Positions 47,901 to 53,900 of a stretch of 64,000 nt of DNA are shown piece by piece (the first letter of the stretch is position 1; each line of letters starts with the position of its first letter). A program made the position numbers. Origin of the DNA: Escherichia coli (GTDB taxonomy: Bacteria > Pseudomonadota > Gammaproteobacteria > Enterobacterales > Enterobacteriaceae); assembly GCF_030013205.1 (NCBI RefSeq), contig NZ_CP122648.1, one strand, 5' to 3'.

Positions 47901-50900
47901 GTCAGCAGACCTTGTTTGATCGCATACAGCGGAATGGCGTGTACCAGATCGCGCAGGGTGATGCCCGGCTGCATTTTGCCTTTGAAGCGCACCAGAACGG
48001 ATTCCGGCATATCCAGCGGCATTACGCCTGTTGCGGCTGCAAATGCCACCAGACCAGAACCCGCCGGGAAAGAGATACCGATCGGGAAACGGGTATGGGA
48101 GTCACCACCGGTACCGACGGTATCCGGCAGCAGCATACGGTTCAGCCAGGAGTGGATTACGCCGTCACCCGGACGCAGCGACACACCGCCACGGTTCATA
48201 ATGAAGTCCGGCAGCGTGTGGTGCGTATTCACGTCAACCGGTTTCGGATATGCCGCAGTGTGGCAGAAAGACTGCATCACCAGGTCAGCCGAGAAGCCCA
48301 GGCACGCCAGGTCTTTCAGTTCATCACGGGTCATCGGGCCGGTGGTGTCCTGTGAACCTACAGAAGTCATTTTCGGTTCGCAGTACGCGCCCGGACGAAT
48401 GCCTTTCACACCGCAGGCACGACCTACCATTTTCTGCGCCAGCGAGAAGCCGCGATCGCTCTCAGCGACATCTTTCGCCTGACGGAACACATCGCTGTGC
48501 GGCAGGCCAAGTGCTTCACGCGCTTTGGTGGTCAGGCCACGCCCGATAATCAGCGGAATACGGCCGCCAGCACGCACTTCATCAATCAGCACGTCGGTTT
48601 TCAGTTCGAAGGTCGCCAGCAGTTCGCCGGTTTCGTGGTTACGCACTTCACCTTTGTACGGGTAAACGTCAATTACGTCGCCCATGTTCAGGTTAGAGAC
48701 GTCGACTTCGATTGGCAGTGCACCCGCGTCTTCCATCGTGTTAAAGAAGATTGGTGCAATTTTACCGCCGAGGCACAAACCACCGCCGCGTTTGTTCGGC
48801 ACATGTGGAATATCATCGCCCATAAACCACAGAACGGAGTTAGTGGCGGATTTACGCGAAGAACCCGTACCCACAACGTCACCGACGTACGCCAGCGGGA
48901 AACCTTTCTGTTGCAGAGCTTCGATTTGCTTGATCGGACCAACAACACCTGGCTGATCTGGCTCAATACCTTCACGGGCGTTTTTCAGCATCGCCAGCGC
49001 GTGCAGTGGGATATCCGGGCGTGACCACGCATCCGGTGCCGGAGAAAGGTCATCGGTGTTGGTTTCGCCTGTGACTTTGAAGACGGTAACGGTCAGTTTT
49101 TCAGCCAGCGCCGGGCGATTCAGGAACCATTCGGCATCCGCCCAGGACTGCATTACCTGCTTCGCATATTCGTTGCCTGCTTTGGCTTTCTCTTCTACGT
49201 CATAGAAGTTATCGAACATCAGCAGCGTGTGAGAAAGTGCTTTGGCAGCGATCGGTGCCAGTTTGGCATCATCCAGCGCGTCGATCAGCGGATGAATGTT
49301 GTAACCACCCTGCATGGTGCCCAGCAGTTCGATGGCTTTTTCCGGAGTCAGCAGAGGGGATTTGGCTTCACCTTTCGCGATAGCAGCCAGGAAGCCAGCT
49401 TTTACATAGGCAGCTTCATCGACGCCTGGGGGAACACGGTTGGTTAACAGATCTAACAGGAATTCTTCTTCGCCCGCGGGCGGGTTTTTCAGCAGCTCTA
49501 CAAGCGCGGCCATTTGGTTTGCATCCAGGGGTTTGGGCGCAATCCCCTCAGCGGCACGCTCAGCTACGTGCTTACGGTATTCTTCTAGCACGACGGTTCT
49601 CCTCGCTCTCATTGTCATAGTGCGGCAGGCGATTCTCTTCACGCTCCTGTGAGACAGCAGTTTGTAGGGTAAATGCCCAGTACCGCAACGGGCAGAATAG
49701 CAGGATTTTGACGATGTGTTAATCTGTTTACAAAAAAGCAACATAAAAAAGTGGCTGAATCGTTAAGGATAGTCTAGAGATTGTTTCCCTACGTAAAAAC
49801 CTCGTTAATTCGCATGGTGATAATCACCTTTCTGAACGAATCCCAAGATTAGTCAAAATTTAAACTACCGCCTCTTTATACTCGGAATCACAGCACCTGC
49901 GGGTGGCAGTTCGCCGACCATTGCGATTTCCTTGAGATCCGAATTATGAAAATGACTTTGCCGTTTAAACCCCATGTGCTGGCGCTAATTTGCAGTGCCG
50001 GGCTTTGTGCCGCCTCTGCCGGGCTATATATAAAAAGCCGCACAGTGGAAGCGCCTGTGGAAGCGCAATCGACACAACTGGCTGTGTCTGACGCTGCCGC
50101 GGTTACGCTTCCTGCAACGGTTTCCGCGCCTCCCGTAACACCCGCCGTCGTCAAATCCGCATTCAACACTGCACAAATAGATCAATGGGTTGCGCCTGTC
50201 GCGCTGTACCCCGACGCTCTGCTTTCACAAGTGTTAATGGCATCAACCTATCCGGCAAACGTTGCGCAAGCAGTACAATGGTCGCACGATAACCCACTTA
50301 AACAAGGCGATGCTGCTATTCAGGCGGTATCTGACCAGCCGTGGGACGCCAGCGTTAAATCACTGGTGGCCTTTCCACAATTGATGGCATTGATGGGCGA
50401 AAACCCGCAATGGGTGCAAAACCTGGGCGATGCTTTTCTGGCGCAGCCGCAGGACGTGATGGACTCGGTACAGCGATTGCGGCAACTGGCGCAACAAACC
50501 GGCTCGCTGAAGTCATCAACTGAACAGAAAGTTATTAACACAACGAAGAAAGCTGTACCGGTAAAACAGACAGTCACGGCTCCCGTCATACCATCCAATA
50601 CCGTTTTAACTGCCAACCCCGTCATTACAGAGCCGGCAACAACCGTCATTTCCATTGAGCCTGCCAATCCTGATGTGGTCTATATTCCCAACTACAACCC
50701 AACCGTGGTTTACGGGAACTGGGCCAATACTGCGTATCCGCCGGTTTATCTGCCACCACCAGCCGGAGAACCGTTTGTTGACAGCTTTGTGCGCGGATTC
50801 GGCTATAGCATGGGCGTTGCTACCACGTACGCGCTATTCAGCAGCATCGACTGGGATGACGACGATCATGATAATCATCATCATGACGATGATGATTATC

Positions 50901-53900
50901 ATCACCACGATGGCGGTCATCGTGACGGTAATGACTGGCAACACAACGGCGACAACATCAATATCGACGTCAACAATTTCAACCGTATCACCGGTGAGCA
51001 TCTTACTGATAAGAATATGGCATGGCGGCACAATCCAAACTACCGTAATGGTGTGCCCTATCATGATCAGGATATGGCAAAGCGGTTTCATCAAGCCGAT
51101 GTCAACGGCGGAATGAGCGCCACGCAGCTACCTGCTCCAACACGCGACAGCCAGCGTCAGGCGGCAGCAAGTCAGTTTCAGCAACGAACACACAGCGCAC
51201 CAGTCATTACACGAGATACCCAACGTCAGGCTGCGGCACAGCGATTTAATGAAGCGGAACATTATGGGAGCTATGACGACTTCCGCGAGTTCAGCCGTCG
51301 CCAACCACTTACCCAGCAACAAAAGGACGCCGCTCGTCAGCGTTATCAGTCGGCCTCTCCTGAGCAGCGCCAGGCAGTCCGCGAGAAAATGCAGACTAAC
51401 CCGCAGATCCAGCAGCGAAGAGAGGCAGCGCGTGAGCGTATTCAGTCCGCCTCGCCTGAGCAGCGCCAGGCGGTTCGCGAGAAAATGCAGACTAACCCGC
51501 AGAACCAGCAGCGAAGAGAGGCAGCGCGTGAGCGTATTCAGTCTGCAACTCCCGAACAGCGCCAGGTGTTTAAGGAAAAAGTACAGCAGCGCCCACTGAA
51601 CCAACAGCAACGTGATAACGCCCGCCAGCGTGTTCAATCAGCATCACCTGAGCAACGTCAGGTTTTTCGGGAGAAAGTTCAGGAGAGCCGCCCACAACGT
51701 CTAAACGACAGTGACCATACTGTCAGGCTGAATAACGAGCAACGGTCAGCAGTACGCGAACGTCTCTCTGAGCGCGGAGCAAGGCGACTGGAAAGGTAAA
51801 TTACAGACGTAAAAAAAGCGGCGTGGTTAGCCGCTTTTTTAATTGCCATATGTCCCGGCAAACGAAGAATTACTTCTTCTTCGCTTTCGGGTTCGGCAGG
51901 TCGGTAATGCTACCTTCGAACACTTCTGCCGCCAGGCCCACAGACTCGTGCAGAGTCGGGTGCGCATGGATGGTCAGTGCGATGTCTTCAGCATCACAAC
52001 CCATTTCGATTGCCAGGCCGATTTCACCCAGCAGCTCGCCGCCGTTAGTACCGACAATCGCACCACCGATCACACGGTGAGATTCTTTGTCGAAAATCAG
52101 CTTGGTCATACCGTCTGCGCAGTCGGAAGCGATAGCACGACCAGAAGCAGCCCACGGGAAGGTGGCGGTTTCATAGCTGATGCCTTTCTCTTTCGCTTCT
52201 TTCTCAGTCAGACCAACCCATGCAACTTCTGGTTCGGTATAGGCGATGGACGGGATAACTTTCGGATCGAAGTAGTGTTTCTTACCGGCGATAACTTCAG
52301 CGGCAACGTGACCTTCGTGAACACCTTTATGTGCCAGCATCGGCTGACCGACGATATCGCCGATAGCAAAGATGTGCGGTACGTTGGTACGCAGCTGTTT
52401 GTCAACGCGGATGAAACCACGGTCGTCAACTTCCACGCCAGCTTTACCTGCGTCGAGGTTTTTACCGTTCGGCACACGACCAATTGCTACCAGCACGGCG
52501 TCGTAACGCTGCGGTTCAGCTGGTGCTTTTTTGCCTTCCATCGTCACATAAATGCCGTCTTCTTTCGCTTCAACGGCGGTAACTTTGGTTTCCAGCATCA
52601 GGTTGAATTTTTTGCTGATACGCTTGGTGAAGACTTTAACGATGTCTTTGTCAGCTGCCGGGATAACCTGGTCGAACATTTCAACCACATCAATCTGTGA
52701 ACCCAGCGCGTGGTATACGGTCCCCATCTCCAGACCGATGATACCGCCACCCATTACCAGCAGGCGTTCTGGTACTTCTTTCAGTTCCAGCGCGTCAGTG
52801 GAGTCCCAGATACGCGGATCTTCATGCGGAATAAACGGCAGTTGGATCGGGCGAGAACCCGCTGCAATGATCGCGTTGTCGAAGTTGATCACGGTTTTGC
52901 CGTTCTCACCTTCAACTTCCAGGGTGTTAGCCCCGGTAAATTTACCCAGACCGTTGACCACTTTGACTTTGCGGCCTTTCGCCATACCAGCCAGACCACT
53001 GGTCAGCTGATTGATCACTTTCTCTTTCCAGGTACGAATCTTGTCGATATCGGTTTTCGGTTCGCCGAAGACGATGCCGTGTTCAGCCAGCGCTTTGGCT
53101 TCTTCGATAACTTTTGCTACGTGCAGCAGTGCTTTAGAAGGGATACAGCCGACGTTCAGGCAAACACCGCCAAGGGTGTTGTAACGTTCTACGATTACGG
53201 TTTCCAGACCTAAATCAGCGCAACGGAAGGCAGCGGAGTAACCTGCGGGGCCTGCCCCAAGTACCACGACCTGAGTTTTGATTTCAGTACTCATCATGAC
53301 CTCTATATATTTATCTCCGGCGGTCATACCCGTCGTCTTTCAGGCCGCAGCGGCGTTAGCTTCACGCCCTCACCCCAGTCACTTACTTATGTAAGCTCCT
53401 GGGGATTCTGGCGCTTGCTACCTTGCTGCACCCAGAAATCCATAGGGTATGTGAAGTAATACCCTAACCACCACCGGGTCGTTCTATCCGTCGGTATTTT
53501 ACAAAATTGTTAACAATTTTTAAACAACAAACGGCAACCGATTTGTCTATTCGCTAATAACCTCAATACATTCATGAGATTACCAGAAAAGAGCCGGCCG
53601 TTGGGCCGGCTCTTTTACTTACATCACCAGACGGCGAATGTCAGACAGCGTGTTGTTAATGATGGTAATGAAACGGGCACCATCAGCACCGTCGATCACG
53701 CGGTGGTCGAAGGAGAGAGAAATCGGCAGCATCAGACGCGGCACGAACTCTTTACCATTCCACACCGGCTCCATCGCGGACTTGGAAACGCCGAGGATAG
53801 CCACTTCCGGCGCGTTCACAATCGGCGCGAAGTGGGTAGTACCCAGGCCGCCGATGCTGGAGATGGTGAAGCAACCGCCCTGCATTTCGCCCGCAGTCAG

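What the first reader, a model, noticed from the sequence alone, without database searches (positions are those of the whole stretch)
50860..51700. YacH carries a His/Asp-rich tract and near-perfect ~120-bp tandem repeats
Seen in sequence: the 617-aa secreted protein of unknown function contains HDNHHHDDDDYHHHDGGHRDGNDW (a candidate metal-binding tract) and at least two nearly identical repeats encoding SPEQRQAVREKMQTNPQxQQRREAARERIQSA, followed by more diverged copies. Such repeats are prone to copy-number change by slippage or recombination. The function is undescribed, and the adjacent acnB/lpdA context does not explain it.
Basis: seen in the sequence. Interest (0 to 1): 0.3.

Follow-up and report, generated by a model that had tools for sequence, protein, structure and literature searches.

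The report
YacH: two length-variable coding repeat tracts
The E. coli envelope protein YacH, whose function is unknown, carries a His/Asp-rich loop and a run of 32-residue repeats that are real and differ in length between strains, but this is an ordinary kind of coding-repeat variation in an already annotated gene.

Summary
The feature is real. Window 49946-51799 (+) is yacH, 617 aa, a Pfam DUF3300 protein.

- **His/Asp tract.** It lies at aa 304-330 and is built from 19 consecutive NAY codons. AlphaFold2 predicts it to be disordered.
- **Tandem repeat.** Its period is 96 bp (32 aa), not about 120 bp. Units 1 and 2 share 90 of 96 nt. Each unit is predicted to form a two-helix hairpin in a very basic Arg/Gln-rich tail.
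- **Length variation.** Both tracts vary in length among E. coli genomes, and they hold the only in-frame indels found in 20 alleles. About 53% of sampled genomes carry four repeat units and about 40-45% carry three. Three-unit alleles are polyphyletic, so copy number changed several times. The His tract occurs at 14, 27, 29 and 35 aa through small duplications and one microhomology deletion.
- **Conservation.** The tract keeps its composition in all 13 Enterobacterales homologs examined and is absent from other Proteobacteria. Repetitive basic tails occur across the whole family.
- **Selection.** yacH is under purifying selection (dN/dS 0.13-0.2).
- **Lost partner.** Escherichia lacks the DUF2950 gene that follows DUF3300 genes in 71 of 74 other loci.

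Metal binding remains untested. No solved structure resembles the YacH model. Similarity to CpxP is limited to one motif.

The parts
49946..51799 (+). yacH coding sequence, 617 aa plus stop
   Evidence: ORF list. Annotated yacH / DUF3300 domain-containing protein in E. coli genomes. dN/dS is 0.13-0.20 between E. coli alleles.
49946..50032 (+). N-terminal export signal, aa 1-29, either a cleaved signal peptide or a signal anchor
   Evidence: K2 and K8 are followed by the hydrophobic stretch VLALICSAGLCAASAGLYI, the top hydropathy window at 2.04. ASA lies at aa 23-25. AlphaFold2 predicts a helix at aa 9-29. Homologs in other Proteobacteria have typical signal peptides. Cleavage was not tested.
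50168..50944 (+). Pfam DUF3300 (PF11737) match, aa 75-333: a helical domain, a beta segment and a Gly-rich hydrophobic segment
   Evidence: hmmscan E 2.4e-78, 263 bits against a cut-off of 25. pLDDT is about 95 for aa 70-200 and about 90 for aa 230-270. dN/dS is 0.01-0.05.
50855..50935 (+). His/Asp-rich loop, aa 304-330, between W303 and W331. The core, aa 304-322, is 19 consecutive NAY codons (D/H/N/Y).
   Evidence: Tandem Repeats Finder reports a 21-bp period with 2.1 copies at 50868-50912. pLDDT is below 50. Length classes of 14, 27, 29 and 35 aa occur in E. coli through +6, +24 and -39 bp events. The tract is present in 13 of 13 Enterobacterales loci and absent from about 65 other proteobacterial loci.
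51143..51250 (+). Two copies of an RD(S/T)QRQAA..F motif, aa 400-414 and 423-435, conserved in the tails of enterobacterial homologs
   Evidence: Read from the translation and from the tails of Citrobacter, Kluyvera, Pseudocitrobacter and others.
51260..51355 (+). Degenerate repeat 'unit 0', aa 439-470. Its second half, LTQQQKDAARQRYQSA, is in register with the later units.
   Evidence: 50-53 of 96 nt and 12 of 32 aa identical to units 1 and 2.
51356..51451 (+). Repeat unit 1: SPEQRQAVREKMQTNPQIQQRREAARERIQSA
   Evidence: Predicted helices at aa 472-483 and 486-500.
51452..51547 (+). Repeat unit 2, 90 of 96 nt identical to unit 1. Three-unit alleles carry one unit in place of units 1 and 2.
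   Evidence: Predicted helices at aa 504-516 and 518-533.
51548..51643 (+). Repeat unit 3, the diverged 'B' type: TPEQRQVFKEKVQQRPLNQQQRDNARQRVQSA
   Evidence: In B2-type alleles (CFT073, S88, GF130) and WW2 it is replaced by an A-like unit. It holds the 16-residue match to the second LTXXQ motif of CpxP.
51644..51796 (+). Partial unit 4 plus the C-terminal end, ...RSAVRERLSERGARRLER
   Evidence: The basic tail aa 471-617 has pI 11.6, 34 K+R and 28 Q.
51812..51840 (.). Hairpin flanked by an A-run and a T-run between the convergent yacH and lpdA genes; a likely bidirectional intrinsic terminator
   Evidence: RNA fold -15.9 kcal/mol, z -3.3. Sequence read. The pattern scan missed it because its stem extends into the A/T runs.

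Best explanation
Shown. The region is yacH. It encodes an exported protein of the very large DUF3300 family and is under purifying selection. It contains two in-frame, mutation-prone coding repeat tracts.

(1) A run of NAY codons encodes a disordered, strongly acidic His/Asp loop. The loop is inserted where non-enterobacterial homologs have only a short 'CDWG..DVNINVN' turn. Small tandem duplications and microhomology deletions change its length.

(2) A 96-bp minisatellite encodes 32-residue units. Each unit is predicted to form a two-helix hairpin that starts with an S/T-P-E-Q helix cap. The units make up a very basic Arg/Gln-rich tail. This tail is the Escherichia-specific version of the repetitive basic tail found throughout the family. 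Unequal recombination or replication slippage between the near-identical units has repeatedly added or removed one unit. As a result, three-unit and four-unit alleles coexist at comparable frequency.

Inferred. YacH probably acts in the cell envelope. Its transcription responds to CpxR, ampicillin and cationic peptides, and its deletion raises protamine survival. The acidic His/Asp loop probably binds divalent metal ions or protons (my estimate about 0.4-0.5). The basic tail probably contacts anionic envelope components or partner proteins, with unit number setting its length and charge (about 0.3-0.4). The molecular function of the DUF3300 core remains unknown.
For: Identity and selection:
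- Pfam DUF3300, E 2.4e-78.
- 9507 cluster representatives at E<=1e-3.
- dN/dS 0.13-0.20 overall and 0.01-0.05 in the core domains.

Tract anatomy.

Structure:
- The His tract has pLDDT below 50.
- The repeats form helix pairs with pLDDT 73-89.

Polymorphism:
- In a 60-genome systematic sample, 31 genomes match the window length, 16 are -96 bp (one of them a further base shorter, later fetched and annotated 'frameshifted'), 6 are -90 bp and 1 is -39 bp. Five B2-type genomes could not be sized from this alignment.
- Every in-frame indel in 20 alleles falls in one of the two tracts.
- The events are a CATGAC duplication, a 24-bp tandem duplication and a 39-bp deletion between CAT repeats.
- Repeat architectures AAB, AB, AA' and AAA' all occur, and different AB alleles retain different A units.
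- AB alleles are polyphyletic on flank trees.
- A Salmonella isolate carries an 8-bp GATCATCA deletion in the same tract (PMC10048834).

Conservation:
- The His/Asp tract is present in 13 of 13 Enterobacterales loci.
- 47 of 77 family coding sequences have tandem repeats, many of them in the basic tail.

Envelope link:
- yacH is CpxR-regulated, and the deletion mutant survives protamine better (PMC9600279).
- Expression falls in a rob deletion mutant (PMC7537768).
- The promoter is induced by ampicillin (PMC8865558).
- Expression rises 1.39-fold with a cathelicidin (PMC6737244).
Against: - No experiment or regulatory datum links YacH to any metal. The NAY-codon tract could persist through slippage alone.
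- One allele (Ec-042) has lost half the tract, and one homolog (P0007) lacks it entirely. The tract is therefore dispensable at least sometimes.
- The tail sequence turns over completely between genera, so any binding must depend on composition rather than sequence.
- Localisation, and whether the signal is cleaved or acts as an anchor, is unverified.
- The reported mutant phenotypes are modest and come from screens.
- The structural model is only moderately confident overall (mean pLDDT 69.6).
- The allele frequencies come from about 100 sampled rows, not from all 5425 genomes.
Confidence: 0.6

Rival explanations
1. Both tracts are selectively neutral low-complexity filler. They would be spacers created and reshaped by slippage, tolerated because they lie in disordered or extended parts of the protein, with no binding role of their own.
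For: The tail sequence and repeat period differ completely between genera. Length classes coexist without an obvious cost. The His tract is halved in Ec-042 and absent from homolog P0007. The tract is entirely NAY codons, as expected from expansion of a GAT/CAT repeat.
Against: dN/dS in the tail is 0.08-0.29, and 0.1-0.5 in the His tract, rather than about 1. All tract indels seen are in frame. H+D composition is retained in 13 of 13 Enterobacterales genera. A basic repetitive tail ending in RR is retained across the family.
Confidence: 0.25
2. The C-terminal repeats are an LTXXQ-type module like those of CpxP and Spy. YacH would then act as a periplasmic chaperone or Cpx-pathway modulator, with the His/Asp loop as a ZraP-like metal switch.
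For: BLASTP of the tail against CpxP gives 32% identity over 120 aa, E 0.001. It aligns SPEQRQAVREKMQ with LTEHQRQQMRDLMQ, and TPEQRQVFKEKVQQR with LTPEQQAVLNEKHQQR. The Smith-Waterman score is 85 against 51±8 for shuffles, with 0 of 1000 shuffles reaching it. The hhalign score of 23.5 exceeds 30 column-shuffled decoys (maximum 14.4) and the reversed decoy. Predicted helical hairpins and CpxR regulation fit this reading.
Against: No Pfam LTXXQ (PF07813) or Metal_resist match at E<=1; the best hit is a sub-threshold DUF3106 match. hhalign gives only 7% probability over 16 columns. Spy and ZraP comparisons are not significant. A search of 5.8 billion proteins with the tail returned only YacH fragments. 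Q/R-rich helices match each other easily.
Confidence: 0.08
3. The length variation reflects diversifying selection on an exposed protein, driven by phage, colicins or host immunity. It could also be a phase-variation switch.
For: The gene is unusually polymorphic for a core gene. Only 18 of 5425 genomes are at least 99% identical to the window allele. dS between K-12 and CFT073 is 0.31, and about 1 in the linker aa 191-232. dN/dS is 0.7-1.5 in the N-terminal linker for some pairs. Alleles are mosaic.
Against: Repeat units are multiples of 3 and tract changes are in frame, so there is no on/off switching. Overall dN/dS is low. Surface exposure is only a software prediction quoted in PMC9600279. 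Frameshifted alleles are rare and lie outside the tracts.
Confidence: 0.07

Closest known systems
DUF3300 (PF11737) proteins of other Proteobacteria, normally encoded directly upstream of a DUF2950 (PF11453) gene
   Same: Signal sequence, helical N-domain, 'VIxIEPANPQVVYVPxYNP' beta segment, Gly-rich hydrophobic segment and 'W.HNP..R.GVPY' motif. The tail is basic and repetitive and ends in Arg residues.
   Different: The Escherichia protein has no DUF2950 partner. It carries the Enterobacterales-only His/Asp loop and an Escherichia-only 32-residue SPEQRQ hairpin repeat in place of the usual Gly/Arg-rich end.
His/acidic-rich flexible loops of metal-handling proteins, such as the ZnuA zinc-binding protein loop and the His-rich ends of ZraP (recalled from my own knowledge, not tested here)
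   Same: Exported protein with a disordered stretch dominated by His plus Asp.
   Different: No metal regulation or binding is known for YacH. The loop sits in a DUF3300 core rather than a solute-binding fold. The E. coli ZraP sequence showed no similarity to the tail.
CpxP/Spy LTXXQ periplasmic helical-hairpin proteins (PF07813)
   Same: A helix-start motif [LS][TS]PEQ.Q followed by a Q/R-rich helix, predicted hairpins, CpxR control, and a weak pairwise similarity to CpxP.
   Different: The family HMM does not match, and the profile comparison gives 7% probability. YacH has tandem 32-residue units fused to a 470-residue protein, not a 150-residue cradle.
In-frame coding minisatellites (VNTRs) of bacterial envelope proteins
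   Same: Tandem units whose length is a multiple of 3, with near-identical neighbouring copies. Copy number is polymorphic, recurrent and in frame within a species.
   Different: This locus is not the 96-bp MLVA marker ms11. Only 3 or 4 units were seen, so the range is narrow.

Membership tests
DUF3300 (Pfam PF11737) | Match to the family HMM above the gathering score | tested here: met
   263.2 bits against a cut-off of 25, E 2.4e-78, aa 75-333 covering profile positions 2-227 of 227.
DUF3300-DUF2950 gene pair | A DUF2950 gene immediately downstream on the same strand | tested here: not met
   Present in 71 of 74 loci with enough downstream sequence (70 as a separate downstream ORF, plus L070 where a read-through ORF overlaps), including Citrobacter, Enterobacter, Kluyvera and Pseudescherichia between acnB and lpdA. 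Absent in the window (70-bp gap to lpdA), in E. albertii and in AST85. No DUF2950-like DNA in 5426 E. coli genomes.
DUF3300 family architecture | N-terminal export signal and a basic, repetitive C-terminal tail | tested here: met
   Hydrophobic N-terminus. Tail pI 11.6. Tandem repeats in 47 of 77 family coding sequences.
LTXXQ / CpxP-Spy family (PF07813) | Match to the family HMM or significant profile similarity | tested here: not met
   No PF07813 or PF13801 hit at E<=1. hhalign probability 7.4% over 16 columns. Pairwise similarity to CpxP only, E 0.001.
LTXXQ / CpxP-Spy family (PF07813) | Helical-hairpin fold carrying the motif at a helix start | tested here: inconclusive
   [not shown]
Metal-binding His-rich tract | Dense His with acidic residues in an exported, flexible segment | tested here: met
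   19 of 24 residues are H or D. pLDDT is below 50. Composition is conserved in 13 of 13 Enterobacterales loci.
Metal-binding His-rich tract | Demonstrated metal binding or metal-responsive regulation | not testable with these tools
   No paper found links yacH to a metal. This needs ITC or ICP-MS and reporter assays.
Coding VNTR / minisatellite | In-frame tandem units with copy-number polymorphism arising more than once | tested here: met
   96-bp units. The -96 bp alleles make up about 40-45% of the sample. Three-unit alleles are polyphyletic and retain different units.
Phase-variable contingency locus | Repeat changes that shift the reading frame or promoter spacing to switch expression | tested here: not met
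   All tract indels are +6, +24, -39 or -96 bp. The two E. coli frameshifts seen lie outside the tracts.
MLVA marker ms11 (96-bp unit) | Published primers flank the repeat | tested here: not met
   Neither primer from PMC8215070 matches the window with up to 3 mismatches.

The most novel reading that the evidence does not exclude
After Escherichia lost the DUF2950 partner gene, the YacH tail was rebuilt into tandem CpxP-like LTXXQ hairpins. Together with a metal- or pH-responsive His/Asp loop, YacH would then act as a tunable periplasmic chaperone or modulator in the Cpx envelope-stress response. The 3-unit versus 4-unit polymorphism would set its strength.
Probability: 0.07. Interest if true: 0.6.

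Novelty: new member of a known kind. Interest (0 to 1): 0.3.

Why it matters
- yacH is one of the uncharacterised 'y-genes' of E. coli. It belongs to a very large protein family (thousands of cluster representatives) that has no known function and no solved structure.
- The two tracts are the only length-variable parts of the gene. They vary recurrently while the core is strongly conserved. This gives natural allele series (14, 27, 29 or 35-residue His loop; 3 or 4 hairpin units) that can be swapped to test function.
- The loss of the otherwise almost universal DUF2950 partner in Escherichia means E. coli may be an atypical model for this family.
- The 96-bp repeat is also a simple strain marker.
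- None of this overturns current understanding. It is a tidy example of coding-repeat variation in an annotated gene.

Tried and rejected
- **PDB sequence search with YacH:** only chance-level hits.
- **NCBIfam:** no model matches.
- **Rfam on 49500-52000:** nothing.
- **Promoter scan:** no convincing yacH promoter.
- **Pfam on the tail alone:** only a sub-threshold DUF3106 match, 18.9 bits against a cut-off of 24.3.
- **Tail search in the 5.8-billion protein set:** only YacH fragments, so it gave no outside relatives.
- **CpxP homolog search:** returned only near-identical CpxP sequences, so the profile stayed narrow. hhalign then gave 7% probability. I rejected homology with CpxP and kept only a motif resemblance.
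- **Spy and ZraP comparisons:** not significant.
- **Idea that this is MLVA locus ms11, which shares the 96-bp unit size:** rejected, because the primers are absent from the window.
- **Search for a DUF2950 remnant:** nothing in the yacH-lpdA spacer, in the 64-kb window, or in any E. coli genome.
- **Relaxed selection after partner loss:** rejected, because dN/dS is 0.13-0.2.
- **One literature search with min_terms=2:** mostly noise.

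
Full report
**1. What is there**

The window holds a 617-codon ORF at 49946-51799 (+). It lies between acnB (-) and lpdA (-). The ORF matches Pfam DUF3300 over aa 75-333 (E 2.4e-78). No NCBIfam model matches. It is annotated yacH in 5425 of 5426 complete E. coli genomes.

The whole loop between W303 and W331 has a core of 19 consecutive NAY codons, encoding only D, H, N and Y. The tract is far outside chance. Nineteen of 24 residues are H or D, against at most 8 of 24 in the other 138 long open frames of the window.

The repeat is also real, but its period is 96 bp (32 aa), not about 120 bp. Tandem Repeats Finder gives period 96, 2.4 copies and score 373. Units start at nt 51356, 51452, 51548 and 51644. 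Units 1 and 2 share 90 of 96 nt. Later units are progressively diverged, and a degenerate unit precedes them.

**2. Structure and charge**

An AlphaFold2 model built on 34 family members has mean pLDDT 69.6.
- A helical domain at aa 70-200 is confident (pLDDT about 95).
- A beta segment at aa 230-270 is confident (pLDDT about 90).
- The His/Asp loop is disordered (pLDDT below 50).
- Each 32-residue unit forms two helices (pLDDT 73-89), with the S/T-P-E-Q motif at a helix start.

The protein is electrically bipolar. The parts up to the His loop have pI 4-5. The repeat tail, aa 471-617, has pI 11.6 with 34 K+R and 28 Q.

**3. Variation within E. coli**

I took a systematic 60-row sample of the 5425 matching genomes over nt 50800-51799.

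| Length class | Genomes |
|---|---|
| Same length as the window | 31 |
| -96 bp (one a further base shorter; fetched and annotated 'frameshifted') | 16 |
| -90 bp | 6 |
| -39 bp | 1 |
| B2-type alleles, not sized from this alignment | 5 |
| Highly divergent | 1 |

A 40-row sample over the whole gene agrees with this.

Eighteen intact E. coli alleles, plus E. albertii and a divergent Escherichia strain (AST85), were compared at the protein level. The 18 E. coli alleles, E. albertii and two frameshifted alleles were aligned as DNA.
- Every in-frame indel lies in one of the two tracts.
- The two frameshifted pseudogenes have 1-bp changes elsewhere.

The His loop occurs in four lengths:
- 27 aa in most alleles.
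- 29 aa in the ST131 type, from a CATGAC duplication.
- 35 aa in CFT073, from a tandem duplication of 24 bp.
- 14 aa in Ec-042, from a 39-bp deletion between CAT repeats.

The repeat array occurs in four architectures: AAB, AB, AA' and AAA'. Different AB alleles retain different A units, each matching a different AAB relative. On trees built from the flanking parts of the gene, the three-unit alleles are polyphyletic. Copy number has therefore changed at least three or four times.

A published Salmonella isolate carries an 8-bp GATCATCA deletion in the equivalent tract, which frameshifts the gene (PMC10048834).

**4. Selection**

dN/dS between E. coli alleles is 0.13-0.20 overall. It is 0.01-0.05 in the helical and beta domains and 0.08-0.29 in the tail. 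The gene is therefore maintained by selection and is not decaying.

Synonymous divergence is high for an E. coli core gene. It is 0.31 between K-12 and CFT073, and about 1 in the linker aa 191-232. The alleles are mosaic.

**5. Family context**

The family is very large, with 9507 cluster representatives at E<=1e-3. Members share these features:
- a signal sequence;
- the helical domain;
- a 'VIxIEPANPQVVYVPxYNP' segment;
- a Gly-rich hydrophobic segment;
- an Asn-rich 'DVNINVN' stretch;
- a 'W.HNP..R.GVPY' motif;
- a long basic tail ending in Arg residues.

Tandem repeats were found in 47 of 77 family coding sequences, many of them in the tail, and their units are unrelated in sequence and period.

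The His/Asp loop is present in all 13 Enterobacterales loci, from Escherichia to Hafnia and Rahnella. It is absent from about 65 Pseudomonas, Burkholderiales and Xanthomonadales loci. The 32-residue SPEQRQ unit is restricted to Escherichia. Other enterics have different units.

**6. The missing partner**

In 71 of 74 loci with enough sequence, a DUF2950 gene follows the DUF3300 gene directly on the same strand. That count is 70 separate downstream ORFs plus L070, where a read-through ORF overlaps. The pairing has been noted before in rhizobia (PMC4653623).

Citrobacter, Enterobacter, Kluyvera, Pseudescherichia, Pseudocitrobacter and Phytobacter have the order acnB-yacH-DUF2950-lpdA. Escherichia lacks the partner.
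- The window has only a 70-bp spacer holding a hairpin terminator.
- No remnant is detectable in the spacer or the window.
- No E. coli genome holds similar DNA.

**7. Function**

Papers that name yacH report the following:
- CpxR-dependent regulation, and better protamine survival of the deletion mutant (PMC9600279).
- Lower expression in a rob deletion mutant (PMC7537768).
- Ampicillin induction of the promoter (PMC8865558).
- Mild induction by a cathelicidin (PMC6737244).
- Higher recombinant GFP yield in the deletion mutant (PMC7376861).

These reports point to the cell envelope but give no mechanism. I infer that the acidic His/Asp loop binds metal ions or protons. I also infer that the basic hairpin tail contacts anionic envelope components, with unit number setting its length. 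Neither inference has been tested.

**8. The CpxP lead**

- The tail aligns with CpxP at 32% identity over 120 aa (E 0.001). The alignment places SPEQRQ-type helix starts on both LTXXQ motifs of CpxP.
- The alignment score beats 1000 shuffles.
- Pfam LTXXQ does not match.
- Spy and ZraP comparisons are not significant.
- hhalign gives only 7% probability over 16 columns.

I treat this as a motif resemblance, not as family membership.

**9. Verdict**

The prediction of copy-number change is borne out, and the His tract is conserved in composition. Metal binding is still a conjecture.

The gene and its family are already catalogued, and in-frame coding repeats that vary in number are a known phenomenon. 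This is a new, well-documented example rather than a new kind of thing.

Noticed in passing
window 51797-51872; loci L011-L020 (for example L011 6651-7445): In related Enterobacteriaceae a DUF2950 gene sits between yacH and lpdA, and it follows the DUF3300 gene in 71 of 74 loci overall. Escherichia (E. coli, E. albertii, strain AST85) has lost it. No remnant is detectable, and no similar DNA occurs in 5426 E. coli genomes.
   Followed up: yes
[not shown]
   Followed up: partly
window 49946-51799, especially 50516-50641 (aa 191-232): yacH is unusually divergent for an E. coli core gene. Only 18 of 5425 genomes are at least 99% identical to this allele. dS between K-12 and CFT073 is 0.31 overall and about 1 in the linker, while the flanking lpdA protein is identical in nearly all strains fetched. 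Trees from different gene segments disagree, which suggests old allelic lineages and recombination.
   Followed up: partly
window 51812-51840: A GC-rich hairpin with an A-run on one side and a T-run on the other lies between the convergent yacH and lpdA genes. It folds at -15.9 kcal/mol with z -3.3. It is probably a bidirectional terminator, and the pattern scan missed it.
   Followed up: partly
L006 2683-2923 (CFT073), L098, L099; L097 2279-3000 (WW2): The yacH-lpdA spacer is 70 bp in most strains. It is about 240 bp in B2-type strains, where it looks to my eye like REP-type palindromic elements; I did not test this. Strain WW2 has an IS621 transposase gene next to yacH.
   Followed up: no
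window 50655-51116 (+) and 50834-51094 (-): ORFs in other frames across the His/Asp tract translate to runs of I/M/T/V. They are by-products of the codon repeat, not genes.
   Followed up: partly
loci L023-L089, C-terminal ends of the DUF3300 ORFs: Almost every family member ends in ...GGG(G)RR, HRR or RHR. E. coli ends in RGARRLER. A conserved extreme C-terminal di-arginine in an exported protein is unexplained.
   Followed up: no
L010 6797-7547 (E. albertii): The space where DUF2950 would lie holds about 750 bp. On the opposite strand it has a small ORF with a signal-peptide-like start, unrelated to DUF2950.
   Followed up: no
L005 (strain Q5) and L102 (strain RM8082): Two of about 100 sampled E. 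coli genomes carry yacH with a 1-bp frameshift, at CDS nt 622 and nt 1253. Both lie outside the repeat tracts and are annotated as pseudogenes.
   Followed up: yes
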